A stretch of 64,000 nt of DNA. Source: a virus (Duplodnaviria; Caudoviricetes). This document shows, in pieces, positions 1,644 to 54,622 of the stretch. The position numbers and the translations under genes were made by a program. Under the pieces are notes generated by a model. The model saw only the letters and a list, made by a program, of their open reading frames with translations, was not told where the DNA came from and did no database searches. The stretch lies in IMG/VR virus record IMGVR_UViG_3300028591_000150, positions 28,308-92,307 of that record; one strand, given 5' to 3'. Position 1 is the stretch's first letter. Every line of letters starts with the position of its first letter.

Positions 1644-2300
1644 ATGGCAAAGGATTGGAAAGGAAACGGCAATAGCATCTATAAGACGCTGGGCGCATCG
1701 AACCATACGAACGAAGAGCGAGAGGTGGATGATTTCTACGCTACTTCGCCAAAAGCCATTGATATTCTTGTTGGCTATCCGCACATTTCTTTGCCAAAGT
1801 ACATCTGGGAACCTTCGTGCGGCAGCGGTTGCCTGTCGAAAAGACTGGAGCAGAAAGGTCATGTCGTGACATCTACTGACCTTATTGACCGTGGCTACGG
1901 ACAGGGGGGGGTAAACTTCTTCGAGCAGTCAAAAATGCCAGACGGCTGTACTGCTATCGTAACAAATCCACCTTACAAATACGCTACAGAATACGTTCTG
2001 CACGCTCTCAGGCTGCTGTCAGAAGGCGGTATTCTATGCCTATTCCTGAAAACGACATTCGCAGAGGGAAAGGAACGCTACTACAAAATCTTCGGTCCTC
2101 AACGGCCACAGTTCGTTCTTCAATGCTCAGAGCGCATACTATGTGCCAAGAATGCCGATTTCGACTACATGCAAGCTCATGGCGGCTCAGCGGTAAGCTA
2201 TGCCTGGTGGATATGGCGCAAGGGCTACAAGGGTGCCACAACACTCGACTGGATTAACCACTCGAATACAGAATATGTGGAACAGTTGTTGCTCTTCTGA
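1644..2300 (+). CDS. DNA adenine methyltransferase (MTase1)
   Basis: DFYAT, WEPSCGSG SAM-binding motif, TNPPY catalytic motif; C-terminal QLLLF; in-frame G8 at 1904-1911. Confidence 0.88.
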   Translation: MAKDWKGNGNSIYKTLGASNHTNEEREVDDFYATSPKAIDILVGYPHISLPKYIWEPSCGSGCLSKRLEQKGHVVTSTDLIDRGYGQGGVNFFEQSKMPDGCTAIVTNPPYKYATEYVLHALRLLSEGGILCLFLKTTFAEGKERYYKIFGPQRPQFVLQCSERILCAKNADFDYMQAHGGSAVSYAWWIWRKGYKGATTLDWINHSNTEYVEQLLLF

Positions 2301-2341
2301 TTTTCGCTTCAATTTAAAACTACAAAATAAAAATAAGCTTT

Positions 2342-2605
2342 ATGACACCACAACAACGCAAAGCCATCGAGATACTGAATGGCATTAGAAACAATTTAGG
2401 CGAGAATTATGAACCTGTAATCAACGAAGACGATTATTTCTTTCTGCTGTCGTTCATCATTGACAAGCCGCAGGAGATAAGTGTACCGACACCGTATTAT
2501 CCAGTTATTCAGCCGTGGCAACCACCAACGATTCAGCCATACTATTATCAGCGATGGGAAGTTACTTGTAAAATTGATGACAATTTTCAAAAATCTGAAG
2601 TGTAA
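2342..2605 (+). CDS. hypothetical protein
   Basis: 87-aa ORF with AT-rich leader, in operon orientation. Confidence 0.6.
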   Translation: MTPQQRKAIEILNGIRNNLGENYEPVINEDDYFFLLSFIIDKPQEISVPTPYYPVIQPWQPPTIQPYYYQRWEVTCKIDDNFQKSEV

Positions 2606-2783
2606 ACTCGGCTTTCACGAGCCTATACGATATCATCAGACGTTCAAGCTCAAATGCCGCACCACGAACAAAGGACGCAGCAAAAAGCGATGGATGACTT
2701 TGGCAAGAGAAATCGTCAATATAACTTACTGCGGAAGATGCGGGAAGACACTTGAAACGAAACGACGCTGGCGGTGGAGATAA
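2577..2783 (+). CDS. small Cys/His zinc-binding phage protein
   Basis: LKCKLGFH...CGRCG pattern. Confidence 0.5.
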   Translation: MTIFKNLKCKLGFHEPIRYHQTFKLKCRTTNKGRSKKRWMTLAREIVNITYCGRCGKTLETKRRWRWR

Positions 2784-2808
2784 TTGTTTTATAGATTATT
2801 ATAATAAT

Positions 2809-3150
2809 ATGGCAAAGCGAAAGAAAAAACGTTACTGGGACGATTGGGACGACGAACCCAACGTGGATGGCGGACTTCCTGAGCCGGATGTGGAAAATAT
2901 TAGCCTGCGCGACTTTATTGTTCCACAAAAAGTCTCGGCCTTTGTACACGAATATGAACATTGCAACGAGGGCGATCCTGGCTATGAACAGTTCGATGAC
3001 GGACGCCTGCGAGAGGTGTTCAAGGCTTATGTGTGTGCTCTTGGCGACCCGCTAAAGTTATATCTCGATGACCTCATGATGGCAGGCTTCATAATGAACA
3101 TCAGTATGGCGACAGGAGAACCGTGTATCTTCGCAAGACGAAAAAATTGA
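2809..3150 (+). CDS. hypothetical protein
   Basis: ATG after AT-rich leader, directly upstream of terL. Confidence 0.65.
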   Translation: MAKRKKKRYWDDWDDEPNVDGGLPEPDVENISLRDFIVPQKVSAFVHEYEHCNEGDPGYEQFDDGRLREVFKAYVCALGDPLKLYLDDLMMAGFIMNISMATGEPCIFARRKN

Positions 3151-3162
3151 ACATTTAACAAT

Positions 3163-5712: not shown

Positions 5713-8700
5713 TTACGGAACGAATCTGAATGTTGTAAAAGGCCGCACTATGTAATTGTAATTCTTTACTGTGCCGTTTACTAAGGCATTTCCAAAATTC
5801 ACGTAGCACCCATAAGTGCTATGAAACTCTGTAGAACACCAATATACAGAATTGGCACTGACGGCACTTAACCAATGATGTCCGCTTGAAACATAAGGAT
5901 AAACTACATCACGACCACGCGCAATAGCGTTTGCGAACAATGGCAGTTGCGCTTCCAATTCTATATTCTCATTGGCATAGTTCTCCGATACTGCACCATA
6001 ATTCGTGTTATATCCGCTTTTGCTGTTACCAAAAAAGTTGTACACTCTTGCCATTATTCCGGTTGAAGGAAGCATCCAATTTCCGCGTTTATAGTTTTCG
6101 TGCAATTTGCTTTCGTCAATCATGGCGCCATCAATGTCGGCAGGACACCATACATTGCATCTTCTTGCGGCCATGAACATAAACAGTCTGTACCTGGCAG
6201 GTCTGGTGGCATTATATGGAGGTTCGCTTGCCTTCTGTACAACAAGGTCTGCAATTCCGCGAAGTCCTTGTGTGGTAAGAGGTATGCCTTCGCTGTCACA
6301 GCCGCCGCTCAAACGTATGTCATTATAGTCCTCTTGTGAAATTCCAAGATATTGGAATATGGCTTTCAACATGGCGTTGGCGTATGATATGAGCACCGCA
6401 TTTTCTTCCTTCATGTCGAAATTATTGATCTCGGCGTTTGCCGAAGCTGCATAGCCGTCTGCCCCGTTCACATCCTGCATGGCATAGCCGCTTCCTGCCG
6501 CAGACACAGCAGCGGCATCCTTTCTGATAACAATGTACCCCCCCCAATTTCTTAGTGGTGTATCAAATATCTCTGTCTTGAAGTTGTTGCTTATAGCATA
6601 CGCAACATCACTTGGTTTGGTCCATGACTGAAGTGCCTGGCGAATCGCTTCAAGAAGGCTGTCGTTGTAAGCTCCGTTTGTTTTTGCGCTGGAAAATCCT
6701 CCAGTTTGAGCACTGTCTGCAAATAATCCCCAAGTATCTTCGTAGCCAGTAGCTACAAGACTTGTCGGGAACGTGGTGTCGGCAGAAGAGATAATGTCCA
6801 AATCATATACAGTGCTCCCATCAACTTCCACTGCAGTCTTGCGGATTACCAATCCTGCAAGCTTCTTAGAAACGTCATTCTGATTGTCAAATTCTCCGTC
6901 AGTCCACGCAAAGTCGCCTACTTCAGGGATGCGCCTCCATAAGCCAACCTTACTAACTACACTTACAGTGCTGTTATCAAGATTTGTTATAGTCACCCTG
7001 ACATTTATCGACGGCCTGGATCCACTTGGGATAACACTGAGTATCGAAATCACAGGGCTGTACATGTTGGTGAACTCTGCATACGAAGATGTGGTAGCCA
7101 CCCATTCGCCGTCCTGGAGTTCCACCAGTTCCCATTTTACATTCGGCACCACTTTGCCACTGGCATCCGTCGTCACTCCGACATCGTTCCCGTTTCCACT
7201 CACGGAAACAGAAAGGCCATTGTAGTTCATGTTTTCATCAAGGTCGTAAGTCGGGCTGCTCGGATTGGTGTTGATGTACTTCTTACCCTCGATATTGACG
7301 CTTCCGCTATCAATGTTATAGGTTCTGAAACTGATATACAAACCGTTTTGCTCGGAACGTATATCGCCGAAATGGTCAATGAGGCGTTTTACATCCTCAA
7401 ACGTGATGACATTCGCTATGCCGCTGTCAACGTAAATATCCGGAACAACACTCACTTCTCCCGTGTGGTCGTGCCCAACCAATTCGCATACGGCATTGTC
7501 TGCCAAATCCAAAAGCCAGCGTATCGCACTTGCCTGCACGGGATTTGAAGCGGGCCACTTGATATGGGCAAGACGCAGCAGACTGAGTTGCGCACCGGCC
7601 TCCCTTGTGCTTAACACGATATTCTCCATGACACTTCCGCCGACCAGAGGGCTTCCCGTAATGACAAGCTGCGTCAATGCCGCATATCCCTGCATGGTGA
7701 GCGACGACAAATTGGCCTGCGCAGTCAATGACAATGCAGTGAGCGAAGCAGGCAGTTTCAAGGTCTGCAGAGTGGAAGTCTCGGGCACCCTTACCTGCGA
7801 TATGCCCGTGTCACGGAGGTCAATGCTCTCGCACACGGTCAAGGCAGAAAGGTTGAGTGTACCGGTTCCGATGACAGCACCCTTTACGTTGAACTCCTTC
7901 AGACGGGTTGCCGTGCCGATGATGATGTTGTTCACTCGGAAAGCAGGAAGTTGCTGGTCTGTATAGAACAGCGTAGGCTCGCAGACGAACTTCGTCAGCC
8001 TGCGTCCGTTGAGTGTGAAGTTCGCCTGTCCGTTGTTGGCCACCATGTCGCCGACATTGCCGATTTCCCGATAATAGTTTAAGCCAAGAATCGTACAGCC
8101 TTGGTCACTCGTCTCTCCGACAGATATATCAAGAGGGAAATATCCATTCGGCATGTTAGTGGCGCCTGGGGCGACACGCACATGGGGGTCTTCGAGGTTG
8201 TTCGTCTGTCTGCTACCAGTCGGATAAATCCACTGGTGCGGCACAAGGTGGAACACGTAGGTCGAAGGCGACGAGCTGCCTGGCAGGGGATATGGTGTCA
8301 TGCCGAATCCTTCCGATGCGCCTTCAAGACCAGTCAGGCTGCCGCCTCTCAATCCGACTGCAGTGAACTCTCCGAATGCGGCATACGAAGCCATATAGAC
8401 AAGTCTGCGCTTCATGAACTGCATTTCCGATTGGAGTTGGTCGCCAAGGCTCTGCTTGATTGGGCGGACTCGTCTTACGTCCGACAAGAAGCCGATAAGC
8501 TCTGGAAGCTCATAACGTATTCTCGCGGCTTCGTTGTAAACCGTCTCTGGGAAGTACCTCTGAATGTCGAAGAGGTATCTGTTGAGCGAACGCCAGACAC
8601 CATTCAAGGCATTCGACTCTTCCGAACCGACACCGCCCGTGAGCGAAGCCATCGTTGAGAGTATAGTTCTCATCATGGACTGCAATTCTCCGGTCGGCTC

Positions 8701-11700
8701 ATACATCAGCTCGATAAGGTCGAACAGCACATTGTAATAGCCTTCATACAGAATCCTCTCGTTGTCTATGTCGCCAGTCATGGCCACATCCGCAGCCTTG
8801 TCTCCGGCATACGGGTGCATTCTGTCGATGTAGTAAGGCTTCGACTGCAAGCCGCTGTTGTCGGTAGCAAGTGTCGTGTCAACGTCGTCCTGGTGCAGCT
8901 CAAACAAATGTGTCGCTGGGTCGAGGACGTAATACGTGTTCTTCGAGCAGTTGTCCGTTCCTGCTATGAAATGGTTCTGGAAACAGTAGTGGAATTTCAG
9001 TGAGTTCACTTTGAAATAGCTGCCGATGTTCGCACGGGCGTCTGCGACAACCGCATCGACGAAAACGCTGTTCACCAGTTCGGACTGGTTCTTCTCCGAT
9101 GCCGTCAGCGCATTCCATGCAGATGCCGTCATTGCGTCTGTGCGCATGTCAATCTGCGCATACTGGGTGCCGTTCCAGAGACCTGCGTCCACCCACTCTC
9201 CGTCCGTGTAGTCGTAGCGCTTCAGAATGTAGTCTCCAGTTGACGTCACGCCCTCCTTGCGGCACCAATACTTGTTTGCCGTGTTCACTCTTGAACGTGC
9301 AAGCTCGATGCGCTCACGTTCTTCTTGCGTAGTGTCTGCCGTGATTTCAAGTTTGGCGTAGTCGGCATCGACCATGAACTCTGCCAGACTTCCGTTGTAG
9401 TGGCGTATTCTCGGTGCGTGCAGATAAAGGAAATTCCATGCAGCCTTGATATACCCTACGATGGCTGAAGACGGATAGCCTGCATCGTCCGTCTTGCCTC
9501 CGTCGAAGTCAAGACACTTCTCGGTACTGCCTCCTGCAATGCGATAATAGAACGCCTCTTCTTCGGGGTCGTAGAACACCTTTGCAGGGCTGTTTCCGTG
9601 CGCTTCATCATCCCAAGGCACACGCATGTCAGTCAGCTGCTTGTCGTTGTCCGCTCCCTCTATCATGCAGAAATCGGGGTGCGCTGACTTCACATAGCCC
9701 CAAGAGGGCTTGTCCATCTTGCCTGCGCCGAAAGCGCAAGGGCCACGGAACACCGCTCTGTTGGAGCCTTCCGCCTGCGTGAAGAAGAGGAACGGCTCGG
9801 TATGCTTTGCAACGACTGCTCCAGGAACGTCCAGCTGCATCTTGTTCTTGCCGACAATGGCCGTATGCAGTTCGTTGTACAGCCAGTTGATGCCGATAAG
9901 GTGCGACTGCATGGAGCTTGCATAGTTGATTTTATTGACAAGCTTCTGTGCCATAGGAATACCCTCTGCCACTTGGTAGCCTTGACCACGATACTTGCCA
10001 TTGCCGTCTATCCAACCATCGGGAACCACGATTGAAGACTCCGTGCCGTGATAGGGCTGTGCAGACTCCGTAGAGAGAGGGAAGTTCTTGCCGAGGAAAC
10101 CGCCTTTCAGCATCCATGCGCCCGTCTCTCCGGTCGGGTTGTCGTCGCCATCCTTCCAGACATAAGCCGCATTCCATGTCGCAGTAATGGAGCTGTGCAG
10201 GTCAGACGGGGCAATCGTGATTGTGGCCGTCACATCTTTGATACTGACTTGGATATTATGGTAATAGTACGTCTTTGCCGTTGTACCCTGCGCTTTTTGA
10301 GGAACACTCTTTGTCTGTTCGCATATCTTGCCAGACAACTCTGGAAGATAGTTGCCCTCGCTGTCATAGCGACGCATTTCGAGCCATCCTGTCTCGCCCT
10401 TGTAGGCATTCTCGTGATACGGCTCGTTGCCGTGCCAGATAAGGACGTTCTTCTTGATGCCCGTCACGGAACCTTCGCCAGTTATGTAGTCCAAGCCAAT
10501 CAGACCAGTGTTCGGGTCTATGATGCTGTTCACGGCCTTCAAGCGACGTTTCTTGTCGCTGTTGGGGATAGTGGAGATGTAGTCCTGCAGCACCTGCTCT
10601 GGCGTGAGCGCAGTGCCCTCCCATATCCTTATGCCGTATATGTCGATGTCTGCACCGTCCTGCCCGAACACCATTCCACCGTTGCTCATAGCACCCGTGC
10701 AGAACTCGGAGGAATTGGGCGAATAGACGAACTCCCTGTTGATGATGCCGTTGATGAACACCCTCACAAGGGAGAATGAGCCTTGCGACTGAGACACCTT
10801 GTCTGCCGTCACCAGCGCATCACCATGCGCATTCGGATAGACGGCATTCACGATGTTGATTGCAATGTGCGTCCTGACATCCTCCTGCCAACGGAAATCA
10901 CTTTCCTCTATTGAGTTCCAGCTCTCCGTTGTCATGTAGCCGACCATCGGCAGAAGGCGCAATCCTTGCCAGACACCGCCGACCTGCTCTGCAAGCTTCA
11001 ATATCGGGTCGTCCTCGTTCGTCACATTCCTGATGCAGACGTCAAACTCCATGTTCAAGGACGAGTTGGGCGACCGGTACAGCAGCGCCAACGGATTGTA
11101 CTGAATATTCAACAGCCTGCCTGCTGGCACACGGAGGCACGACTCGCCGTTGTCGTCTTTGACATAGCCGTCCTCGAGGCCGAGACGGAAGTTCTGCCAT
11201 GTGCTTTGCACAACCGCATTGTTGTTCTTGGCGTTCAAGATAGTCTTCGGGTTCGCCTCGTCATTGTTCCTCTGCTTCGGGTTAAGTAAGAATGTGGAGC
11301 CTGCAGTCGGCTGGAAGCCTCCCGTATTGTCAACACTGACGAAGATATTGCCGCTTCCTGTACTTTCCTCCAAGAAATCCTTTGTCACGCCATTGTCGTC
11401 GCGAGTGGCGTGCAGGAAAGCAGAAAGCGTGTCGCCCTCCTGCTCAATCTCGACAGTCATGTCCAGATAATACTTAGTGCCTGGAACTGGATTGACAAAC
11501 AAACTCGAATAGATAGTCTGCTGAGAGGACAAGATGTTGTTCGCAGAGTTGGTCAGCAGGAACGTCATAGGAACGGACGGGCCAGAGTTTACAATATCTC
11601 CGTCATTATTCACAACGGGCGAATAAACGGCATACGCAAGAAGCCTTGTCTGAACAAAGTTCTCCACTACCTCCTTCATTTCCGAAATGAGAAGCATCGG

Positions 11701-25240: not shown

Positions 25241-26479
25241 TTAGTTTACTTGCATTGGCATTTGAAGTATCAGGCGACTGCTGTGAGCATCATCAGGGCG
25301 ATATAGCACGGGGCGTCTTGGCTCACTGAGGAACAACACCACGCTCTCAGTCTGTATGCGGTCCAGTATGCCGACTGCTGTGCTAATTTTCAAGCCGATT
25401 GCGAAGCCTTCTGGCAGGAAAGCATCTTGGTCTGTTATCGCTACGCGCTCCTGACCGCTGCGACCATTATCCATATTTGCTGCACATACAATGAAGGCAT
25501 CACCATCGCGCCGCAATTCTACCATATTTGTCTGCTCGTTAGCTGACAGCTGAACGCGGCGCAATGCCATCCGAAATGATTCGCGGTCTGCTGACACACG
25601 GTACTGGCTGTCATTCGGAATGACACTATCGTAGTTTGGATAGTTGCCCTCGATGAGTCTTGCAACAATGCGAGCGCCCTTTGTGCAGAACTCACATCGC
25701 TGTCTGTCTGCAGTAACTGTAATCTGTCCGTCGCTTACGACTGATGACAACGCTTTACGAGCCTTCTTTGTGATTAGCAGTTTCGCAGAACCTGGCTGTT
25801 GTGTTTTGGGATCGAAAGCAGGAAACGTCGCATAATCAAGCCATCCGCTGCCGACGCCAGTCTCTATGACATCCTTGAACAACTCGCGGCCGTTTGTTCC
25901 AACAACAATCAACTTGTCATTATACACATCCAGACAAACACCGTTCAATACCATCCTGAGTTCATCATCTGCACTACTTTCTATGGCTGCGGCCATAAGT
26001 GGCAGTAGTTTGGAGGCATCGAGTGTGAATCGGCATAATGCACCTTCCTTGTCTTTTTCAGCGACAGGCAAAGGCAAAGGGAATGTATCACAGTCTTCCC
26101 AACCCATCTCGAACTCACCGATTCCATAGTTTACCTTCATCAAGTGGTCCGTGGTGAACCATACCTGCAACAGCTGTGCGCTTGGCAGTAGGCTTACAGC
26201 CTCTTTTAGCGCAGAAAAAGAAATGGCCACCTCTTTGAACTTGTCCTTCTGGTCGTCTTCAATCATGCGCATCCATTGCTGTCCGTCACTGTCCACGCAG
26301 TCGAGTGTAATCCATGTCTCGCTGTCCGATGCGGTCATAGTAAACACATCTCGACCTTCGTCATACTTCAACACTACACTTCCCAAAATAGGCAGAGCAT
26401 TCTTGGCGTTAATAACAGGAGCAATTTGTGCGAGCGCTTTTCTCCAATAGTTCACGTCAACCGTTAATTTTGTCTTCAT
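25241..26479 (-). CDS. dnaN: DNA polymerase III beta sliding clamp (phage-encoded)
   Basis: KNALPIL, ASDSE, LRMVLNGV, VGTNGREL, RLIEGNYPNY, C-terminal MPM motifs. Confidence 0.9.
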   Translation of the reverse strand: MKTKLTVDVNYWRKALAQIAPVINAKNALPILGSVVLKYDEGRDVFTMTASDSETWITLDCVDSDGQQWMRMIEDDQKDKFKEVAISFSALKEAVSLLPSAQLLQVWFTTDHLMKVNYGIGEFEMGWEDCDTFPLPLPVAEKDKEGALCRFTLDASKLLPLMAAAIESSADDELRMVLNGVCLDVYNDKLIVVGTNGRELFKDVIETGVGSGWLDYATFPAFDPKTQQPGSAKLLITKKARKALSSVVSDGQITVTADRQRCEFCTKGARIVARLIEGNYPNYDSVIPNDSQYRVSADRESFRMALRRVQLSANEQTNMVELRRDGDAFIVCAANMDNGRSGQERVAITDQDAFLPEGFAIGLKISTAVGILDRIQTESVVLFLSEPRRPVLYRPDDAHSSRLILQMPMQVN

Positions 26480-27030: not shown

Positions 27031-27693
27031 TCAATTATTATTCTGACTCGTCGATGGCTGGCTTGTTCCTCTCATATCTTTTCCTTTGAACTCCACGATC
27101 TTGACGATTGAGCGGAGGCGGCTGAGCACTAAGTCGCCGTAGCGGTCCTCGATGCTAGGGATGATGTTACCCTGCTTGTCAACCCCATGAGTGGTTCGCA
27201 GGTTGGCGGTCATCATCAGCAGTATGCCTCGCTTCTCCGCTGCATCGCACAGTTTCAGAAAAGGGGTCGAGCGTTCGCCGAAGTCGAACTTCACAGCAGG
27301 CTCAGTCCCAATGTCATCCACAACTACAAGATTGCGCTTCACAATATCTTGTATGCGGTCGTTCATCTCTTGTGCAGAGTAACTGCTGACAATACGCTGA
27401 TACTTCATGTGAATAAGGACTGGTAGAATGTTCTGTACTATAAGTGTTTTACCCAATCCGCACGGACCGAGACAAAGCAAACCTCGACCACGGTTGTCTG
27501 AGAGCCACGCCGCCACCTGGTCGTAACACGGCAACCACTTCGCGTCATCACCAAGGTAGTAGCGCAGCCCAGAAGACAACAATTCACGAGCCTGCGGAAT
27601 CTGCATATGTAGGCACTTCGGATATGGATTAAAGCCAGAGTCTCGCATCAACTCCACACTTTTACTAAATATGTCTATTTGCTTCTGTTCCAT
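27031..27693 (-). CDS. DnaC/IstB-like ATPase (helicase loader)
   Basis: GPCGLGKT Walker A, VVDDIGTE Walker B, DRYG..SRL, GKDMR. Confidence 0.8.
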   Translation of the reverse strand: MEQKQIDIFSKSVELMRDSGFNPYPKCLHMQIPQARELLSSGLRYYLGDDAKWLPCYDQVAAWLSDNRGRGLLCLGPCGLGKTLIVQNILPVLIHMKYQRIVSSYSAQEMNDRIQDIVKRNLVVVDDIGTEPAVKFDFGERSTPFLKLCDAAEKRGILLMMTANLRTTHGVDKQGNIIPSIEDRYGDLVLSRLRSIVKIVEFKGKDMRGTSQPSTSQNNN

Positions 27694-27704: not shown

Positions 27705-28479
27705 TTAAAATAGAGTTAATTGTTGTTGTTCTAATTTAATTCTCTTGCAGGCTTTGTCGAAGTATTCCTTGTTCAGCTCGAAGCCTATGAAGTGGCGATG
27801 CTCCCTGATACAGGCGATTGCGGTTGTGCCAGAGCCTATTGTAGCGTCCAAAATTACCCCCCATGTTGCTGTATGTAAGAACCAGGTAGCGGAGCAAATC
27901 GACTGGCTTCTCTGTCGGATGGTACGATTTTCCGTTTATGTGCTCCTTGGCGAAGTTAATAATGCTTGACGGATATTTCTCGTCGCTGATAATTGTCGGT
28001 GTCTCAACAAACTTTCCATAGCAACGGTTCTGTGTTGGCTTTGCCATATTGCCTTTTGAATGGTTGCGCTTATGTGGCGGTACTTTAACCATCTGCGGAT
28101 TGTACGTTGGCAATTCCTTGTAGAACACAGCAATGTCCTCATGCTGACGGAGTGGCATACGATTAGCATTAAGAAATCCGCTTTTGAGCGACTTGTCCCA
28201 TATCAGATTGTACCTCCACATCTTCGGCTGCGACATCATCAGCTTTGCCGTAAACATACCCTGGCAGAACAGAACGATAGCCGAATTTGGTTTGGTCACT
28301 CGCTTAAACTGCTCCCACATTGGCTCAAGTGGTATTATACTATCCCAAGAACCGCCTTCGCTCTCTGCATTTAGCACTCCATAAGGAAGATCTGTAATGA
28401 TGCAGTCTATGCTGTTGTTATCAATACGCTTCATGCCTTCAAGACAATCCTCATTATATATTCTGTCTATTTCAATCAT
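27705..28479 (-). pseudogene. N6/N4 DNA methyltransferase (MTase2), frameshifted in a G6 tract
   Basis: TDLPYG and HPTEKP in the first frame; after the G tract at 27857-27862 another frame reads VILDATIGSGTTAIAC..GFELNKEYF..QLTLF* ending at 27705. Confidence 0.85.
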
Positions 28480-28491: not shown

Positions 28492-29754
28492 TTACCATGT
28501 TTCCTGGCCGGCAAAGTTATCTTCATCAACATGCTTTGGAATCTCTTCTGAACGTCGTGGTTGAGACCGATGTACTTTCGGCTGAGATACGGCAATTTCG
28601 TTCTCGCTGATAATCTCATCCTCCCATGAGCGGTGACGCAGGAATGTAGTCGGGTCCTTACGGAAACGTTTTGTGGGCTGGGCTCTCTTATATAATGGAA
28701 TATAGGCCATAATAGCTTCCCTGTCTGACTGTTTCAACGCATTCCACAACTTTTCGCTTGCCACACGGTCGCGTTTCTTGTCGTAAGCATCCCAGAACTC
28801 GTCAAACGTAAGTGAAGTTTCTGTGGGGCTTTTTGGGGGCATTGCGGGGCTGTCATCGCGTTTTTCCCCCTCTGGTGGTATAGATGTACCCTCGCGGGAT
28901 TTTTTTTGCTCTAAACCGCCTTTCTCGACCTTGACAGATTTTTTCGGGTTATTGTTTTGCGTTTTTGAATCGTCGGCCTCGTTTTTCCCCATACCCCTTT
29001 TCCTTATACTTTCATTATTTGTTTTATTTATATTATTATCTCTAACTCCAACTCTCTTTGATTGGGCGTGCGCGTCACCTGCGCCTGCGCGAGGATTTTT
29101 TATATCTTTTTTGCCATCTTTTTCTGCACTAAAATCATCACTTTTTTGCATTCTTACGCGCTCTGCATCTTGGTCGCTTGTGGCATCGTCCGGTGAACCT
29201 ACTACGGTCACACCATCGTCTGTCAAAAGGCGCGGATTGCCCTCTTCGTCGGTCAACTCAAAGCCGTTGTCCAGATACATTCGAGGCTGTATCATCGTGT
29301 CTCCCTCAATGATAATCATACCTCTTAAATATAGTTCCTGCAGACCATGTATTAAACCAGGTCTAGGACCACTTGCGCCACTCACTGCTATGGCTTCTGC
29401 AAAATACACAATAGACTGATATTCACCCACTTTTGCTTTCTTCTGACATTGGAGGCAGCGGAATGTAAGCGAGCGTTCGTTCTTTGGTCGAAGATCGAAA
29501 TCCCGCAGACATATTGACCCTGGATTGGGCTGCAATGCCAGCACGTTCAACAAGTCACAGTACACGCCCTTGGCATTCCAAGAGCAACGTCTGTAGCGTT
29601 GCGACGAGAGCAAGTCTCGCGAGAACATATAGAAGCCTTTTCTCGTCGAGTTCTTGGTAGAGACTCTGCCGTTTTTCTTATTTGTTTTCATACACAAAAC
29701 CCTATTAAAATACCCCGTCATTTTGCTCGCAATTTGCAAAGCATTTTGCAACAC
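28492..29754 (-). CDS. phage replication initiator (start uncertain)
   Basis: N-terminal wHTH-like AKGVYCDLL, Lys-rich linker, C-terminal FDEFWDAYDKK..KDPTTFL..WEDE domain; upstream of loader. Confidence 0.7.
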   Translation of the reverse strand: MLQNALQIASKMTGYFNRVLCMKTNKKNGRVSTKNSTRKGFYMFSRDLLSSQRYRRCSWNAKGVYCDLLNVLALQPNPGSICLRDFDLRPKNERSLTFRCLQCQKKAKVGEYQSIVYFAEAIAVSGASGPRPGLIHGLQELYLRGMIIIEGDTMIQPRMYLDNGFELTDEEGNPRLLTDDGVTVVGSPDDATSDQDAERVRMQKSDDFSAEKDGKKDIKNPRAGAGDAHAQSKRVGVRDNNINKTNNESIRKRGMGKNEADDSKTQNNNPKKSVKVEKGGLEQKKSREGTSIPPEGEKRDDSPAMPPKSPTETSLTFDEFWDAYDKKRDRVASEKLWNALKQSDREAIMAYIPLYKRAQPTKRFRKDPTTFLRHRSWEDEIISENEIAVSQPKVHRSQPRRSEEIPKHVDEDNFAGQETW

Positions 29755-42795: not shown

Positions 42796-43527
42796 TTAGA
42801 GAAGGAATAATCTAAGTGCTTGCCAAGTAAACCATGATGAACGCACGCAGTCGTAGAGTGCATCATGTGCATTTCGGCCAAATGACTCTGGCAGCTGCGG
42901 CAGGAGTTTGTAGGCCAACGTTGGATCTTTCAGCAAGTCTAACTTCGTATAAGGATGGTCCACATCGTCGCGTTCTAACCATTTAGCCGTGCATTCATAA
43001 ATTGCAGTGCGACAGTCGCGGAAATACTTATGGTGAAGTGCCATTGGCAGAAGCTTGTTGCATTTTGTACGCTCTGCGGCATAGCGCAGGATGGGGATAT
43101 CAAAGTCTGTTCCTTGGCACCAAATGCAGAAGTTCTCTGCATCGTGTTCTTTTAGTTGTCCACGAATCCATAAGTCTAAATTTTCGAGAGCATCGTTAAG
43201 TAACTCCTGGCTTTTCAACTCTGTCAATGCTGGATGATTAGAGACTGTAATATCATCCGCAACGGCGTGTTTTGCTTCGCGGCTCTGTTTTCCCCACCAG
43301 CCAGAAGTGTTCTGGTCGAAGTCCCATAGCCCCTCAACAAACTGAGAGTTCAGGTCAATGGTGTTGGCGAAGTGACATGTATCTTCCGGCACAGCAGCCT
43401 CATTGAAGAACATCTGACTTTCGTTCTTTGAAAGTCTGTCCCAAGCCACAGCCGCAATCTGCAGAATCGCTGCGTGTGAGGAAAGTGAACATGTTTCCAA
43501 ATCCAATGTAATATCCAATAGTCTCAT
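42796..43527 (-). CDS. DEDDh 3'-5' exonuclease
   Basis: LDLET, FDIPIL, RDCRT, HDALYD. Confidence 0.85.
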   Translation of the reverse strand: MRLLDITLDLETCSLSSHAAILQIAAVAWDRLSKNESQMFFNEAAVPEDTCHFANTIDLNSQFVEGLWDFDQNTSGWWGKQSREAKHAVADDITVSNHPALTELKSQELLNDALENLDLWIRGQLKEHDAENFCIWCQGTDFDIPILRYAAERTKCNKLLPMALHHKYFRDCRTAIYECTAKWLERDDVDHPYTKLDLLKDPTLAYKLLPQLPESFGRNAHDALYDCVRSSWFTWQALRLFLL

Positions 43528-46182: not shown

Positions 46183-46518
46183 ATGCTCGAATACAATTAC
46201 AACTTCCTACGAGAATGGATAGAACAGACCAGAACTACATATAAGGAAGTGATGCAGGCTGTTGGCAATAGTAGCAGTAGTAATCTACATGACTGGATTG
46301 GCGACGGACCTGCGCAAAAGAGGCAGGCGGATAAGGGAGAGCGAGTACGTCCTGTAGCAATGAACGTGGAGTCAATGATACGTTTCTGTAACCATTTTAA
46401 ATTGCCGATCGGCGTGTTTTTTCTGAAAGATGGCAAACCTCTGTCAGAAACAACCGAAAAGACTTGGCAACAACTCGACATGCGGCTCCGTGTCATAGAG
46501 GAATTATTGAAGATATAG
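46183..46518 (+). CDS. XRE-like HTH protein
   Basis: ATG 1 bp after int stop; MIRFCNHFKLPIGVFF; 3' end overlaps rep. Confidence 0.55.
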   Translation: MLEYNYNFLREWIEQTRTTYKEVMQAVGNSSSSNLHDWIGDGPAQKRQADKGERVRPVAMNVESMIRFCNHFKLPIGVFFLKDGKPLSETTEKTWQQLDMRLRVIEELLKI

Positions 46519-47776
46519 GCTCAGGGCGTTTCGGCACACTATACATCCAAGTGATATTATTGCCAAAGTGCTTCGTGAGCGTTGGCCTTACTAGTTCTCC
46601 AGACACATGCGGCTGCACAATCCATTGGTAGTCCTCGTAGCTATTCATCCGGAGCATAAGTGTATGCGTACTATCTTCCCACGACTCGAATGAAAGCGAT
46701 GATATGACGTGAATGCTGTAATCGCGAGTGCATTTCCCAAGCATATCGGCCTTGCATTGTTCCCAGCGATCAGCTGCTTCTTGCTTGCGAATAATAGTTT
46801 GCTTTGCCATGTCTTTAGCCTCTCCTGTTGCAGGTGTGTCTTTCTTTGTAAGTAGAGAATATCCGATGCCGAGGTCGGTGCTCATAATCGTAAACTCTAT
46901 GAAGTCAGGGTCGCCGCGCCTTCGTCCGTTCAGATAGACAGGCTCATACGAAAATGTGATGTCTGTATGGTTATCACGCGCCATCTGGTCGAGGTCGTCC
47001 TTCACGGCATCCAGCACCTTCGTCTTGAAGTGGGCGAACTTCTGATATGGTACCACCCACTCGCCCGTCGCATCATCCTTGAACGTTTCAAAGCCGAGAA
47101 AGTTCTTAATCTCCTGCACCGTCAGGCGGACGCGGGTGTGCCGCTCCCTACCCATCAGCTCTTGTAACTTGAAGTAGAGCCTTGGTGTGCTCCGCTTCGT
47201 GGCATATCGGGCAATCAGCTTCGGGTGATTGGCGTAGCCTTGACTCATGTCGAAGGCATACTGCGCCACGTCTTTGTTAATCTCCACTTCGATGTAACCG
47301 CTATGCCTCGCAGACTCCACGATAATCTCGCCCTGCTCGTCGCGCTTGCGGTAGTAGTCGCCCGTCCTCGGCACGCGGAACTTGGTGAACACAGGCGAGA
47401 AGATGGTATGTCCCGTCGGCTTGCCGTTCTCATCGAACTCCTGGTGCTCCACAAGCAGGTTCATTTCCTCTATGGCCTTACGCACCACCTTGTAATTGGC
47501 GGGGTCAATGTCCATATCTGCCAGGTTGATGCGGAACGGCGGGATGCCATGCTCCAAAAGATACTTCGTAAAGAGTGCCCTTGGTTTCGCCTCTGTGCTG
47601 TTCAGGTTCAGGTCGAAGAAGTTCTTCACATACTGCTGCAGGTGGTCCGACACCATAAGCATCGTGTCCTGTTGGAACAAAGTTAGCTTCGGCCCGAGCT
47701 TGATGTACGAGAACGGTGTCTTGATCCACACCTCCTGCCGTGCGCACTCCATCAACTGTTGCTTGTTTTCTTCCAT
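46493..47776 (-). CDS. plasmid-type replication initiator (Rep_3/RepB) with C-terminal DnaA_N-like domain
   Basis: PRLY..LTVQEIKNFLG..YQKFAHFKTKVLD..DITFSYE winged-helix pattern. Confidence 0.8.
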   Translation of the reverse strand: MEENKQQLMECARQEVWIKTPFSYIKLGPKLTLFQQDTMLMVSDHLQQYVKNFFDLNLNSTEAKPRALFTKYLLEHGIPPFRINLADMDIDPANYKVVRKAIEEMNLLVEHQEFDENGKPTGHTIFSPVFTKFRVPRTGDYYRKRDEQGEIIVESARHSGYIEVEINKDVAQYAFDMSQGYANHPKLIARYATKRSTPRLYFKLQELMGRERHTRVRLTVQEIKNFLGFETFKDDATGEWVVPYQKFAHFKTKVLDAVKDDLDQMARDNHTDITFSYEPVYLNGRRRGDPDFIEFTIMSTDLGIGYSLLTKKDTPATGEAKDMAKQTIIRKQEAADRWEQCKADMLGKCTRDYSIHVISSLSFESWEDSTHTLMLRMNSYEDYQWIVQPHVSGELVRPTLTKHFGNNITWMYSVPKRPEPISSIIPL

Positions 47777-47952
47777 AACTATTGAAATCTTCAATTCTGT
47801 TGTGCAAAATGCACGATTCTACTATAACATTGTTCACCTCGACACACCGCAAACCCTTTGTTTATCGCATTTTTCGCATTCTGTACTATACTCAACCATA
47901 CCCTTTTTAATTCTCTATATAAAGAGTAATTCTATATATAGTATATAAATAA

Positions 47953-49695: not shown

Positions 49696-51021
49696 TTATT
49701 TGATGATTCCTGCCATCACAAGCCCTATAAGTCCAAGTGGAATGAGCAATCCAGTCTGCCAGACAACAACAAGCGCAACTGACATCGCAGCCGCTAGACC
49801 CGCAGCTTTCATTATTTGATGACTATTATCTTTCTGCACGTTGGGTTCTTCTTGATTACTTTGAATGCTCGAATTATCCGGAATGTTTTTCGTTTCAACG
49901 GCAGCGCCATCAACGACACCGTAAATCTTTGGGGTAACATCATTACTCAGACCAACTTCAACAAGACACCCCGCTGTTACGCCCATTTCTGTCATTTTGT
50001 TCTCTGAGTATAATGATACCTGCTTTACTTCCCTGCCCATAATCATCACGGGCTCTAGATAAGCGACAGGTGTGCGCTTGCCTGTTTTGCCTACACTGAT
50101 CTCAATGCGCAGCACACGAGTAACTGTCTTCTTGGCCGAGAATTTATAGGCAATGTTGCCATTCTGGTGATGCTCTGTGCAGCCAAGAGATGCGGCAATC
50201 TGCTTTTGGTCAATCTTGATGACCACACCATCCGTAGGATAAGGCAGCGATTCCCGAAGCTCGCTATATTCGTCAAGCACCTTGCAGATGCCCTCACCGT
50301 CACACGTCCTGACATCACACAAGAACCCCTGCTGCTGTGCGGCCACGATGCTCGCGCTCTCCGTGCCAAACGGCTGATTGTCGCTATCCATCTGCCAGGC
50401 AATAAACACAAGGTGCTTCATGTCGTCCGATGGTACAACTTGATTGGTCAGTGCAGCAGCAGCCGTGCGGCAGTCCTTATAACCCAACCCTTGCAATTCT
50501 TTCTTAGGACAGACAATCTCTCCGCGTACTTCTACGCGACCTGTCATTTTTATTGCCTTCGGTACTGATGGTATTGCCATCACATGAGCAAACAGATCCT
50601 GGCCTTTATATTTGTCACCGCGTGTGGCAGCTGATACAAGTATGCCGTCCTGATAGACAAGGGAGCAGCTGATGCCGTCGTATTTCCATTCCAGTGCATA
50701 CGTTACGCCAATGCCATTCAAAGCCTTATTGACCTTGCTGAGCCACTTCGTTACTGCATCCATAGTTTGAGCTTTCTGACAGCTCAGCATACGTGTGCGA
50801 TGACGAATTAACCTGCGTCCATTATCTTGGAGGTCGCTACCAACAATCTGCGTCGGACTATCGGCAAGCGTCCATTCTGGATGCTCTGCCTCTGCCTGTT
50901 CAATGTCATTCACCATCGCGTCAAACTGTGAATCGCTTACAGTAGGCTGTGCGAGCACATAATACTCGTAACTAAATCTTTTTGCCCTGTCAACGAGTGC
51001 TATATATTCTTTCTGTGTCAT
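49696..51021 (-). CDS. NAD-dependent DNA ligase-like protein, truncated, with C-terminal membrane anchor
   Basis: Domain Ia YY..P.VSD..FD, KYDG, VRGE, DGVVIK, IAYKF and OB fold; no Zn finger, HhH or BRCT; hydrophobic C-terminus. Confidence 0.85.
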   Translation of the reverse strand: MTQKEYIALVDRAKRFSYEYYVLAQPTVSDSQFDAMVNDIEQAEAEHPEWTLADSPTQIVGSDLQDNGRRLIRHRTRMLSCQKAQTMDAVTKWLSKVNKALNGIGVTYALEWKYDGISCSLVYQDGILVSAATRGDKYKGQDLFAHVMAIPSVPKAIKMTGRVEVRGEIVCPKKELQGLGYKDCRTAAAALTNQVVPSDDMKHLVFIAWQMDSDNQPFGTESASIVAAQQQGFLCDVRTCDGEGICKVLDEYSELRESLPYPTDGVVIKIDQKQIAASLGCTEHHQNGNIAYKFSAKKTVTRVLRIEISVGKTGKRTPVAYLEPVMIMGREVKQVSLYSENKMTEMGVTAGCLVEVGLSNDVTPKIYGVVDGAAVETKNIPDNSSIQSNQEEPNVQKDNSHQIMKAAGLAAAMSVALVVVWQTGLLIPLGLIGLVMAGIIK

Positions 51022-52760: not shown

Positions 52761-52797
52761 GTTGGAAATAATTTAGTTAAACAAATGTGTTTATTTC

Positions 52798-53430: not shown

Positions 53431-53748
53431 TCAGTGAGTAATTACTCTGACGCCGTTCACTTCTATTACTAAGTAATCTCTTATTCTTCTTATCTCGCCG
53501 CTGGCGGTAAAGCGCACCATTCGCTGCCTACATTCCAGAAACACCTTCAGGCAGATGGCTTCGCCGCTTATGACTTCTCCTTTGCTAGTGATGGCTCGGA
53601 AGTAGAACGGTTTTTGCCTCCTGTATTTAGCTTTATCAGGCGGATTAAATCCTGTCACTTCGCAGCCAGTACGCGGGTCCTGCCACGTCCATTGCTCCAT
53701 GTAGTTGCGGAGCTGCTGCCACGATATAGTAGGTTGTTGTTTTGGCAT
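53431..53748 (-). CDS. hypothetical protein
   Basis: 105-aa ORF right after late-type promoter. Confidence 0.65.
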   Translation of the reverse strand: MPKQQPTISWQQLRNYMEQWTWQDPRTGCEVTGFNPPDKAKYRRQKPFYFRAITSKGEVISGEAICLKVFLECRQRMVRFTASGEIRRIRDYLVIEVNGVRVITH

Positions 53749-53756
53749 GACATTGG

Positions 53757-53792
53757 CAAAGGTAGGACATTTTCAAATTTTAGGTCGGACAT
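53757..53792 (-). promoter_or_regulatory. putative phage late promoter ATGTCCG-N21-TACCTTTG
   Basis: Third copy; points at lysis genes. Confidence 0.75.
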
Positions 53793-53859
53793 AAAAAGAG
53801 CCTGCGACCTTCACAGGCGGCAGGCTGGCTCGCGGAAAACGGCTCGGCACGGTGGCGTT

Positions 53860-53894
53860 ATGTCCGCTCGTTTATTATATATGCCGTAGTTTTG
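53860..53894 (+). promoter_or_regulatory. putative phage late promoter ATGTCCG-N20-TAGTTTTG
   Basis: Fourth copy; 20 bp upstream of MTase3. Confidence 0.7.
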
Positions 53895-53914
53895 CAGTGT
53901 AAAACAATGGCGAT

Positions 53915-54622
53915 ATGATTTCAGAGGTTTTCAATCAGGACTGCATAGCGTATATGCGCACCTTGCCGGACGGGTTCTTTAATCTGGCTGTGGCAGATCC
54001 GCCGTATGGGTTTGGCGATAGCTATGTGCCTCACGACCCACGCGGACGCTTTGGAGGGCGTTTCGACAAGTACAGAGATACCAGCGTGACCACACCAACG
54101 GAGTGGGACACTGCCCCCGATGCTGCTTTCTTCGCGGAGCTGGCTCGCGTCTCTCAGCATCAAATCATTTGGGGGGCCAACTTCTTTCCAGATATGCCTC
54201 CGTGCAAGTGCTTCCTGACATGGGTCAAGACGAACATCCCCGACGGCTTTTCGATGGCGCAGGCCGAGTATGCTTGGACCAGCCTGACGTGCAATGCCCG
54301 CGTGTGGCAAGGCAGTAGTGCCCGCTCGAAGGATAGCGACCACTTCCACCCGACGGAGAAGCCTGTCGGTCTCTACCGCTGGCTGATGCGGGTCTGGATG
54401 GAGTCGGTGCAGGTCACGCCAGCCGATACTCCAAAGGTATTCGACCCGATGATGGGGAGCCAGTCGTCGCGCATCGCTGCCTACAGCCTTGGACTTGACT
54501 ATTACGGCTGCGAACTGGATACCGAGTATTTTCGACGCGGCTGTCTGCGTTATGAAAAAGAAACCGCCGGACTGATTGCTCAATCCGGCGGTCAAACCAT
54601 ACGTCAATTAAGTTTATTCTGA
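53915..54622 (+). CDS. N6/N4 DNA methyltransferase (MTase3)
   Basis: ADPPYG, HPTEKP, FDPMMGSQSS, GCELD; C-terminal QLSLF; in-frame G6 at 54171-54176. Confidence 0.9.
   Translation: MISEVFNQDCIAYMRTLPDGFFNLAVADPPYGFGDSYVPHDPRGRFGGRFDKYRDTSVTTPTEWDTAPDAAFFAELARVSQHQIIWGANFFPDMPPCKCFLTWVKTNIPDGFSMAQAEYAWTSLTCNARVWQGSSARSKDSDHFHPTEKPVGLYRWLMRVWMESVQVTPADTPKVFDPMMGSQSSRIAAYSLGLDYYGCELDTEYFRRGCLRYEKETAGLIAQSGGQTIRQLSLF

What the first reader, a model, noticed from the sequence alone, without database searches (positions are those of the whole stretch)
1644..54622. All three DNA methyltransferases end in a beta-clamp-binding motif, and the phage encodes its own clamp
Seen: MTase1 ends EQLLLF, MTase3 ends RQLSLF, and MTase2 (frame restored) ends QQLTLF. 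dnaN lies at 25241-26479. The DnaC-like loader begins with a weaker match, QIDIF. Known: QL[S/D]LF is the canonical clamp-binding pentapeptide, often C-terminal. Inference: divergent orphan MTases in three different transcription units (packaging, replication, late-promoter-driven) dock on the sliding clamp. They would methylate nascent phage DNA at the fork, giving replication-coupled anti-restriction methylation.
Basis: partly seen in the sequence, partly recalled or inferred. Interest (0 to 1): 0.82.

Follow-up and report, generated by a model that had tools for sequence, protein, structure and literature searches.

The report
Clamp-binding tails on phage DNA methyltransferases
All three DNA methyltransferases of this Bacteroidales phage end in the short peptide that bacterial proteins use to hold the DNA sliding clamp, and the same tail recurs on several unrelated families of phage DNA-modifying enzymes, which suggests these phages methylate their DNA at the replication fork, as DNMT1 does on PCNA in animals.

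Summary
The three methyltransferase (MTase) genes end exactly in QLLLF, QLTLF and QLSLF before the stop codon. The whole 92-kb genome has only eight QLxLF in six frames, and chance expects about 0.001 such C-termini. A three-domain beta-clamp gene lies at 25241-26479.

MTase2 is broken by a G6 tract, so its tail is made only if the frame is restored. The tract varies from G6 to G10 among relatives and looks like an ON/OFF phase switch.

The tail shows signs of selection:
- 109 of 119 MTase3 relatives and 85 of 120 MTase2 relatives carry Qxx[LMI]F, or the six-residue form Qxx[LMI]x[FL], at the C-terminus. A further 30 MTase2 relatives carry NPTLF-like forms.
- In MTase1 it is a lineage-specific add-on, seen in 4 of 150 relatives.
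- Among 3,518 ORFs in 146 related loci, every strict tail sits on a DNA MTase (N6_N4, D12 or C5 class) or on a PAPS-reductase-like protein.

Cultured Bacteroides, Flavobacterium, Nonlabens and Streptococcus phages have the tail but no dnaN, so a phage clamp is not required. The QIDIF at the start of the DnaC-like loader is not conserved.

Binding to the clamp was not tested. I found no paper describing a bacterial or phage MTase as a beta-clamp partner. This scan has noted similar tails before on other DNA.

The parts
1644..2300 (+). MTase1, a 218-aa gamma-class (NPPY) N6-adenine-type DNA methyltransferase. The folded domain ends near residue 204, followed by the tail NHSNTEYVEQLLLF.
   Evidence: Translation. 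phrog_799 'DNA methyltransferase', E 2e-51. The AlphaFold2 (AF2) model has pLDDT 88.7 with residues 205-218 as coil. Its best structural matches are M.TaqI, M.BseCI and HsdM.
2283..2297 (+). C-terminal QLLLF of MTase1, directly before the stop codon
   Evidence: The tail is present only in the nearest relatives (P0244, P0280, P0358) and independently in P0324. 144 of 150 representatives end at the domain boundary ...WI(N).
27705..28479 (-). MTase2, a beta-class N6_N4 DNA methyltransferase. It is out of frame in this sequence and is 257 aa when read through.
   Evidence: PF01555 E 2.8e-30 over the full length. phrog_67 E 1.9e-71. Both halves match PF01555 in the genome search.
27857..27862 (-). 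Poly-G tract (G6) inside the Gly-Gly of the SAM-binding motif. It is the site of the frameshift and a candidate phase-variation switch.
   Evidence: sequence; relatives have in-frame G7 (32 loci) or G8, and out-of-frame G7, G8, G9 or G10. Distant relatives have G3-G5.
27708..27722 (-). C-terminal QLTLF of MTase2, directly before the stop codon (in frame B)
   Evidence: Homologues end in QLTLF, QPSLF, NPTLF or QLxLDF.
53915..54622 (+). MTase3, a 235-aa beta-class N6_N4 DNA methyltransferase with a ~14-residue variable linker before its tail
   Evidence: PF01555. phrog_67. In the AF2 model the last helix spans 203-217 and the final five residues have pLDDT 55. Alignment A3: Q231 and L234 are kept in at least 90% of sequences, F235 is invariant, and the linker varies.
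54605..54619 (+). C-terminal QLSLF of MTase3, directly before the stop codon
   Evidence: 109 of 119 homologues carry a Q-type motif within 0-4 residues of the end.
53861..53894 (+). Phage promoter-like motif TGTCCG-N20-TAnnTTTG, 21 nt upstream of the MTase3 start codon
   Evidence: four matches in the window against 0.03 expected. That this is a late promoter was not tested.
25241..26479 (-). Phage dnaN, a 412-aa beta sliding clamp
   Evidence: Pfam beta domains 1, 2 and 3. phrog_947. TIGR00663 scores 111 bits, below its cut-off. 47 solved beta clamps match. Pocket residues R152, L155, T172, G174, L177, P242, V247, M362, P363 and M364 (E. coli numbering) are conserved; H175R, R176E, N320K and Y323T differ.
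27031..27693 (-). DnaC-like helicase loader directly downstream of MTase2. Its N-terminal QIDIF (27667-27681) is not a conserved clamp motif.
   Evidence: phrog_3277. In homologues the N-termini read xIDxIF or FDELF without a Q.
28492..29754 (-). Replication initiation/primosomal-like protein directly upstream of MTase2, which places MTase2 inside the replication module
   Evidence: phrog_270 and phrog_9327.

Best explanation
The C-terminal QLxLF peptides are beta-clamp-binding motifs (CBMs). Each sits at the end of a short flexible tail beyond the methyltransferase fold.

Proposed mechanism: clamps are loaded at the replication fork and left behind on newly made duplex. The tail docks into the hydrophobic pocket between domains II and III of such a clamp, either the host's or the phage's own DnaN. 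This holds the enzyme on nascent phage DNA, so new copies are methylated as they are made and are protected from host restriction before packaging.

Shown here: the motif is present; it is under selection; it lies outside the fold; it is specific to DNA-modifying enzymes; it arose several times independently; and a clamp with a largely conserved pocket is encoded nearby.

Inferred, not shown: physical binding; which clamp is used; coupling to replication; and the anti-restriction benefit.

The phage has no DNA polymerase or clamp loader that I could find. Its clamp must therefore work with host Pol III and the host loader, which themselves use this pocket. That argues the phage clamp accepts canonical motifs.
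For: (1) The tails match the highest-affinity consensus QLxLF given in the 2024 beta-clamp review (PMC11139829). They sit at the extreme C-terminus, as in Pol II and Pol IV.

(2) Chance is excluded.

(3) Conservation follows the pattern of a short linear motif. In MTase3 relatives at 50-87% identity, F is invariant, Q and L are kept in at least 90%, and the linker varies. 109 of 119 MTase3 relatives and 85 of 120 MTase2 relatives have a Q-type motif. In the strictly terminal tails, usage by position is Q/N, L/P, T/S, L, F.

(4) Homologues alternate between the pentamer Qxx[LM]F and the hexamer QLxLxF/L (QLTLDF, QLKLDL, QLSLDFG). This is exactly the two-form grammar of known CBMs.

(5) The tail was gained independently. 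MTase1 shows no sequence similarity to MTase2 or MTase3, and only its nearest relatives carry the tail. In related loci, D12-class Dam-like and C5-cytosine MTases and PAPS-reductase-like proteins also end in QLSLF, QLTLF or QLALF.

(6) The tail is specific. None of about 3,300 other ORFs in 146 loci, and none of 120 DnaC-like proteins, carries a strict tail.

(7) The AF2 models place the tails after the last secondary-structure element of the fold, at low pLDDT.

(8) The tail occurs in phages of two phyla (Bacteroidota and Bacillota). A shared partner must therefore be universally conserved, as the clamp pocket is.

(9) Tailed MTase2 relatives in bacterial contigs lie in virus-like neighbourhoods, and tail-less ones do not (median 31% against 0% of neighbouring genes shared with viral loci, p = 5e-5).

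(10) The hydrophobic core of the phage DnaN pocket is conserved.
Against: No binding, structural or methylation data exist; everything here is comparative.
- MTase2 is out of frame in this genome, so only two tails are certainly made.
- Subsite-2 residues of the phage clamp differ from E. coli (H175R, R176E, N320K, Y323T), so its specificity may differ.
- Many MTase2 relatives use NPTLF or QPSLF, with Pro at position 2, which has not been validated as a CBM.
- Some phage MTases of the same superfamily have no tail (E. coli EmilieFrey, Vibrio VchM-138, Staphylococcus BE08, Rhizobium 16-3), so tethering is not a general requirement.
- The neighbourhood test is not phylogenetically independent.
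Confidence: 0.72

Rival explanations
1. The tails do bind the clamp, but their role is to occupy or deplete host clamps. This would slow host replication or repair, or displace host clamp partners such as MutS/MutL or Hda. It would not serve to target methylation. MuC of phage Mu perturbs Hda-clamp control in this way when overproduced.
For: Overproduced MuC, through its clamp-binding motif, disturbs Hda-clamp control in E. coli (preprint 10.1101/2025.01.04.631326). Overproduced DNMT1 and Pol IV cause damage through clamp binding alone. The phage's own dnaN could compensate for such competition.
Against: The tail is found only on DNA-modifying enzymes of five or more unrelated families. It is never on other phage proteins in 3,518 ORFs. 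A pure decoy would not need a catalytic domain, yet the catalytic motifs are conserved.
Confidence: 0.1
2. The tails are tuned to the phage-encoded clamp only. That clamp would be a private platform on phage DNA that recruits phage enzymes without competing with host clamp clients.
For: The genome encodes dnaN, and four of five ~100-kb relatives with tailed MTases do too. In L091, dnaN sits directly beside two tailed MTases. The phage clamp has altered subsite-2 residues and two insertions.
Against: Bacteroides phage BF486P1, Flavobacterium phage filifjonk9-1, Nonlabens phage P12024L and Streptococcus phage Javan161 carry tailed MTases but no dnaN. Provirus G004 also lacks it. The tails match the canonical consensus, not a divergent one.
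Confidence: 0.12
3. The conserved C-terminal ...LF peptide serves another partner or process. Examples are a protease degron, a signal for packaging the enzyme into virions, or an oligomerisation or autoinhibitory contact. Its likeness to the clamp motif would then be coincidental.
For: Binding was not tested. The NPTLF and QPSLF variants depart from validated CBMs. MTase1 lies in a unit with a terminase-like gene.
Against: The full Q-phi-x-L-F grammar, including the hexamer alternates, matches CBMs. Any other partner would have to be shared by Bacteroidota and Streptococcus phages and be relevant only to DNA-modifying enzymes.
Confidence: 0.05
4. Chance or compositional artefact.
For: None beyond the shortness of the motif.
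Against: Expected 0.0013 per genome; shuffles gave a mean of 0.11 against 3 observed. The motif is conserved in hundreds of homologues.
Confidence: 0.01

Closest known systems
Bacterial beta-clamp-binding motif clients (Pol II, Pol III alpha, Pol IV, Pol V, MutS, MutL, Hda, delta, transposases, MuC)
   Same: The same peptide grammar: Q-phi-x-[L/M]-[F/L], or the hexamer with one extra residue. It is often at the extreme C-terminus on a flexible tail. The tails here equal the highest-affinity consensus QLxLF (PMC11139829).
   Different: No DNA methyltransferase appears among known beta-clamp partners in the reviews and papers I could search. The word 'methyl' does not occur in the 2024 review, and the 2022 review cites only DNMT1-PCNA. 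Here the clients are phage DNA-modifying enzymes, and binding is untested.
DNMT1-PCNA coupling in eukaryotes (PIP box; Iida et al. 2002, as cited in PMC9690074)
   Same: A DNA methyltransferase is tethered by a short peptide to the replication sliding clamp, so that newly replicated DNA is methylated promptly.
   Different: The clamp (PCNA trimer against beta dimer), the motif (PIP box against QLxLF), the enzyme class and the purpose all differ. DNMT1 serves epigenetic maintenance; here the likely purpose is evasion of restriction. The two are analogous, not homologous.
Orphan anti-restriction methyltransferases of phages (for example the Dam-like enzymes of T-even, P1 and T1 phages; from my own knowledge)
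   Same: Stand-alone MTases without a partner endonuclease, encoded by phages and thought to protect phage DNA from host restriction.
   Different: To my knowledge none has been reported to use a clamp-binding tail. Three such enzymes checked here (E. coli EmilieFrey, Vibrio VchM-138, Staphylococcus BE08) have none.
Clamp-tail findings noted earlier in this scan (e1-3726720: ..PLF tails beside a phage beta-type clamp; e1-257572 and related notes: RB49-like phage MTase with a gp45-binding tail)
   Same: The same idea: phage DNA-modifying enzymes carry the clamp-docking peptide of their replication system.
   Different: Those are on other DNA and other motif variants, and they are unverified AI notes. 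Here there are three canonical QLxLF tails in one genome, plus a survey across families.
Phase-variable methyltransferases (phasevarions) of Haemophilus, Neisseria and Helicobacter (from my own knowledge)
   Same: A homopolymeric tract inside an MTase ORF whose length differs between isolates and switches the frame ON or OFF.
   Different: Here the tract is in a phage orphan beta-class MTase. Known phasevarions are mostly Type III mod or Type I hsd genes of bacteria. Switching within a population has not been shown.

Membership tests
Beta-clamp-binding-motif (CBM) client proteins | The peptide fits Q-phi-x-[L/M]-[F/L] or Q-phi-x-[L/M]-x-[F/L] | tested here: met
   QLLLF, QLTLF and QLSLF, against the definition in PMC11139829.
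Beta-clamp-binding-motif (CBM) client proteins | The motif lies in an exposed, flexible terminus or loop, not inside the fold | tested here: met
   In the AF2 models, MTase3's last helix ends at 217 and the final five residues have pLDDT 55. MTase1's fold ends at 204 and 205-218 is coil. MTase2 was not modelled.
Beta-clamp-binding-motif (CBM) client proteins | The motif is conserved among homologues while the flanking linker varies | tested here: met
   109/119 for MTase3 relatives, 85/120 (+30 N-type) for MTase2 relatives, and 0/120 in the DnaC-like control.
Beta-clamp-binding-motif (CBM) client proteins | Physical binding to the pocket between clamp domains II and III, lost on mutating the motif | not testable with these tools
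   No multimer modelling or wet-lab assay was available.
Beta sliding clamp (DnaN) | Three tandem clamp domains (PF00712, PF02767, PF02768) | tested here: met
   All three domains match over their cut-offs (the N-terminal domain only marginally, 24.3 bits against 24.4). 47 solved beta clamps match.
Beta sliding clamp (DnaN) | Scores as an equivalog of bacterial DnaN (TIGR00663 cut-off 137.65 bits) | tested here: not met
   111 bits. It is a divergent phage-type clamp, about 23% identical to E. coli beta.
Beta sliding clamp (DnaN) | Conserved residues of the peptide-binding pocket | tested here: inconclusive
   The hydrophobic core and the C-terminal MPM are conserved. H175R, R176E, N320K and Y323T differ. 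This rests on a pairwise alignment at 23% identity.
N6_N4 (beta-class) DNA methyltransferases, PF01555 | Pfam match over the cut-off, with a DPPY/DLPY catalytic motif and a GSGT-type SAM-binding motif | tested here: met
   MTase2 scores 106 bits and MTase3 33 bits. The DLPY, DPPY and SGTT/GSQSS motifs are visible.
Gamma-class N6-adenine DNA methyltransferases (M.TaqI-like) | Rossmann-type SAM fold with motif I before an NPPY motif IV, and structural likeness to solved members | tested here: met
   MTase1 has SCGSG followed by TNPPY. Foldseek's top hits are M.TaqI and M.BseCI. phrog_799 matches. There is no Pfam or NCBIfam hit, and the DNA target is not shown.
Phase-variable methyltransferase | A homopolymer inside the ORF whose length differs among isolates and toggles the reading frame | tested here: met
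   G6 to G10 at the same codon pair across 146 loci, with both in-frame and out-of-frame states.
Phase-variable methyltransferase | Switching within one population, with a change in methylome | not testable with these tools
   This needs read-level data or experiments. Homopolymer sequencing error is not excluded.

The most novel reading that the evidence does not exclude
Docking on the beta sliding clamp through a C-terminal QLxLF-type tail is a general and so far unrecognised design of phage DNA-modifying enzymes across bacterial phyla. It has been gained independently by at least five enzyme families: gamma-, beta- and alpha-class adenine MTases, C5 MTases and PAPS-reductase-like enzymes. 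This would be the prokaryotic counterpart of DNMT1-PCNA. It would also mean that phage-encoded clamps serve partly as platforms for DNA modification.
Probability: 0.55. Interest if true: 0.85.

Novelty: new variant of a known kind. Interest (0 to 1): 0.78.

Why it matters
Replication-coupled DNA methylation through a sliding clamp is textbook biology for eukaryotes (DNMT1-PCNA). As far as I could find, it has not been described for bacteria or their viruses.

If the tails bind the clamp, three things follow:
- It explains how a fast-replicating phage keeps every new genome copy protected from restriction.
- It adds a new client class to the beta-clamp 'tool belt'.
- It gives a simple sequence signature for telling phage anti-restriction methyltransferases from cellular ones.

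It is directly testable in cultured systems that carry the tail: Bacteroides phage BF486P1, Flavobacterium phage filifjonk9-1 and Streptococcus prophage Javan161.

The conserved, length-variable poly-G tract in MTase2 also suggests that phages may phase-vary their own methylation.

Tried and rejected
- Megablast of 12 kb of the replication region against 50,697 phage records found no match.
- A search for close relatives of the phage DnaN in IMG/VR found none. Co-occurrence was therefore tested through MTase2 loci and whole-record Pfam searches.
- I considered the loader's N-terminal QIDIF as a Hda-like N-terminal clamp motif and rejected it. Only 1 of 120 homologues keeps the Q. A phi-D-x-phi-F pattern is conserved but looks like part of the first helix.
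- The QLPLF inside the 2351-aa protein (5935-5949) and the QLSLF at 49803-49817 are an internal and an antisense occurrence respectively, and I set them aside as background.
- I asked whether the tail is universal among phage N6_N4 MTases. It is not: E. coli, Vibrio and Staphylococcus phage enzymes lack it, and Rhizobium 16-3 and Bacteroides C3_41T2LP are unclear.
- MTase1 gave no Pfam, NCBIfam or PDB sequence hit. Its identity rests on PHROG, its motifs and the fold search.
- No polymerase or clamp-loader gene was recognised among the window proteins scanned. The scan did not cover every ORF.
- Multimer modelling of tail plus clamp was not possible with the tools.
Full report
**What is in the sequence.**
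The window is 64 kb of a 92.3-kb viral record rated 94% complete by CheckV. It carries three DNA methyltransferase (MTase) genes.

- MTase1 (1644-2300, +) ends ...NHSNTEYVEQLLLF*.
- MTase3 (53915-54622, +) ends ...GGQTIRQLSLF*.
- MTase2 (27705-28479, -) is split between two frames at a G6 run (27857-27862). Read with one G fewer, it gives a 257-aa protein that matches PF01555 end to end and finishes ...KLEQQQLTLF*.

Genome-wide Pfam searches find no further N6_N4, C5 or D12 MTase. A 412-aa protein at 25241-26479 (-) matches all three beta-clamp domains, phrog_947 and 47 solved beta clamps.

One caveat applies: the MTase2 tail is encoded but out of frame in this assembly.

**Is it chance?**
The whole genome holds eight QLxLF in six frames, and three of them abut a stop codon; these are the three MTases. 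From the proteome's composition, the probability of a QLxLF C-terminus is 1.0e-5 per protein, or 0.0013 expected in 121 ORFs. Three hundred shuffles gave a mean of 0.11 and never reached 3.

**Is the tail under selection?**

- *MTase3 family.* Of its 119 best homologues (36-87% identity), 107 carry Qxx[LMI]F and 2 carry the hexamer Qxx[LMI]x[FL], all within 0-4 residues of the C-terminus. In a 41-sequence alignment the terminal F is invariant, Q and L are kept in at least 90%, and the ~12-residue stretch before them varies freely. This is the signature of a short linear motif.
- *MTase2 family.* Of 120 homologues, 85 carry a Q-type motif and 30 more carry NPTLF-like tails. The 2024 beta-clamp review reports that Gln-to-Asn has only modest effects on binding.
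- *Alternation of forms.* Homologues switch between the pentamer (QLTLF) and the hexamer (QLTLDF, QLKLDL, QLSLDFG). These are the two forms the review defines for natural clamp-binding motifs. It names QLxLF and QLxLxF as the tightest binders.
- *MTase1 family.* 144 of 150 cluster representatives end at the domain boundary (...WI/WIN). Only the nearest relatives (P0244, P0280, P0358), and independently P0324 with a different linker, carry an extension, and that extension ends in QLxLF. In this family the tail is a recent add-on.
- *Control.* None of 120 homologues of the neighbouring DnaC-like loader has such a C-terminus.

**Is it specific to DNA-modifying enzymes?**
I fetched 80 IMG/VR loci and 66 bacterial-genome loci around MTase2 homologues, 3,518 ORFs in all. 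Ninety-one ORFs end strictly in Q[LIVMP]x[LMI]F or the hexamer:

- 83 are MTase2 relatives and 1 is an MTase3 relative.
- 4 are D12-class Dam-like MTases (PF02086).
- 2 are C5-cytosine MTases (PF00145).
- 1 is a PAPS-reductase-domain protein. A second such protein ends QQMKLDFGEL.

No unrelated ORF has a strict tail.

MTase1 shares no detectable sequence similarity with MTase2. MTase2 and MTase3 are only 23% identical and have different linkers. The tail has therefore been acquired several times, always on enzymes that modify DNA.

**Where does the tail sit?**
The AF2 model of MTase3 (pLDDT 84.6) ends its fold with helix 203-217, and the final five residues have pLDDT 55. The model of MTase1 (pLDDT 88.7) ends its fold at strand 200-204, and residues 205-218 are coil. 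Its fold matches M.TaqI, M.BseCI and HsdM, which supports an N6-adenine DNA MTase with its NPPY motif.

**Which clamp?**
Aligned to E. coli beta, the phage DnaN keeps R152, L155, T172, G174, L177, P242, V247 and the C-terminal M362-P363-M364. It differs at H175R, R176E, N320K and Y323T (pairwise alignment at 23% identity, so approximate). I recognised no polymerase or clamp loader in the window. The phage clamp presumably works with host Pol III and the host loader, both of which use this pocket.

Four of five ~100-kb IMG/VR relatives with tailed MTases also encode a dnaN, more than 10 kb from the MTase. In locus L091, dnaN lies beside two tailed MTases.

However, several cultured phages carry tailed MTases and no dnaN:

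- Bacteroides phage BF486P1 (QTSLFGV)
- Flavobacterium phage filifjonk9-1 (QLRLF)
- Nonlabens phage P12024L (QQTLF)
- Streptococcus phage Javan161 (QLKLF)

A phage clamp is therefore not required, and the host clamp must be a sufficient partner. The partner is shared by two bacterial phyla, which fits the universally conserved clamp pocket.

**Phage or cellular?**
MTase2 homologues in bacterial contigs are mostly from Prevotella, Bacteroides and other Bacteroidales. This fits the Bacteroidetes-type promoters noted for this genome. Tailed copies lie in neighbourhoods that share genes with the viral loci (median 31% of neighbours). Tail-less copies end at the catalytic domain and lie in unrelated neighbourhoods (median 0%; Mann-Whitney p = 5e-5). 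The test is not phylogenetically independent. More distant phage MTases from E. coli, Vibrio and Staphylococcus phages lack the tail.

- The loader's N-terminal QIDIF is not conserved. Homologues read KIDSIF, TFDELF or INF, and the Q is kept in 1 of 120.
- The transcription-unit claim is partly borne out. MTase2 lies between a replication initiator and the DnaC-like loader, 1.2 kb from dnaN. A TGTCCG-N20-TAnnTTTG motif sits 21 nt upstream of MTase3 (four matches against 0.03 expected). MTase1 lies upstream of a protein whose nearest language-model clusters are terminases, which is a lead only.
- Binding, fork coupling and anti-restriction benefit are untested.

**An unexpected extra.**
The MTase2 frameshift sits in a poly-G tract that is conserved across the phage clade. 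In-frame copies have G7 (32 loci) or G8. Out-of-frame copies have G6 (this window), G7, G8, G9 or G10. More distant relatives have G3-G5 with mixed glycine codons. This looks like a phase-variable ON/OFF switch, with the window copy OFF. Homopolymer sequencing error cannot be excluded.

**Comparison with what is known.**
The peptide and its placement match established beta-clamp clients. What is new is the kind of client. The 2024 beta-clamp review never mentions methylation. The 2022 clamp review cites only DNMT1-PCNA. Five further full-text searches found no bacterial or phage MTase described as a clamp partner. The mechanism would be analogous, not homologous, to DNMT1-PCNA.

This scan has flagged clamp-type tails on phage MTases before, on other DNA (e1-3726720, e1-257572 and related notes). 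Those are unverified notes and were not used as evidence.

**Verdict.**
The clamp-binding reading is strongly supported by comparative evidence but not demonstrated. The role of the phage's own clamp is optional rather than essential. The loader motif is rejected. I rate the finding as a new variant of a known kind and as of high interest.

Noticed in passing
window 27857-27862 (and L066, L111, L120, L126, L127, L137 at the homologous site): MTase2 relatives carry a conserved poly-G tract in the Gly-Gly of the SAM-binding motif. It is G7 or G8 in frame, and G6, G7, G8, G9 or G10 out of frame. This is a candidate phase-variable switch in a phage methyltransferase, and the window copy is OFF. 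An MTase3-like gene in L077 (~9011) has a G8 at the same motif position.
   Followed up: partly
L085:5302-6240 (+); L018:7542-8699 (+): PAPS-reductase-domain (PF01507) proteins in related phage or prophage loci also end in clamp-motif-like tails (...PQLALF; ...QQMKLDFGEL). This suggests another DNA-modifying enzyme family is tethered in the same way.
   Followed up: partly
L036:10793-11854 (+); L091:12262-12954 (+); L120:8380-8877 (+): A D12-class Dam-like MTase (...IQLSLF) and two C5-cytosine MTase ORFs (...RQLTLF, ...IQLTLF) in related loci carry the same C-terminal motif. In L091 they flank a phage-type dnaN (8118-9389).
   Followed up: partly
window 25241-26479 (-): Relative to E. coli beta, the phage DnaN has two insertions: about residues 55-66 in domain I, and about 208-226 just after the TNGREL strand that lines the peptide pocket. 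It also has the pocket substitutions H175R, R176E, N320K and Y323T. This may mean altered partner specificity.
   Followed up: partly
window 26496-26738 (-): An 80-aa acyl-carrier-protein-like gene (PF00550, E 1e-10) sits between dnaN and the DnaC-like loader. That is an odd place for a phosphopantetheine carrier.
   Followed up: no
window 20242-20276 (-), 25135-25169 (-), 53757-53791 (-), 53861-53894 (+): The motif TGTCCG-N20/21-TAnnTTTG occurs four times against 0.03 expected. Two copies face away from each other in the 53749-53914 gap, one of them driving MTase3.
   Followed up: partly
window 49696-51021 (-): An NAD-dependent DNA ligase core (adenylation and OB domains only, 441 aa) without the usual C-terminal Zn, HhH and BRCT domains. 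It has no clamp motif at its end.
   Followed up: no
window 42796-43527 (-) and 35073-35834 (-): A protein with an Rv2179c-like 3'-5' exoribonuclease domain (E 1e-16), and a weak, sub-threshold match to the Thoeris inhibitor Tad3 (E 4.6e-4).
   Followed up: no
window 44988-46181 (+) and 46493-47794 (-): A tyrosine-integrase-like gene (phrog_1) lies next to a Rep3-type initiator-like gene (PF21205). The phage may be temperate or plasmid-like, and it has a second initiator besides the one at 28492-29754.
   Followed up: no
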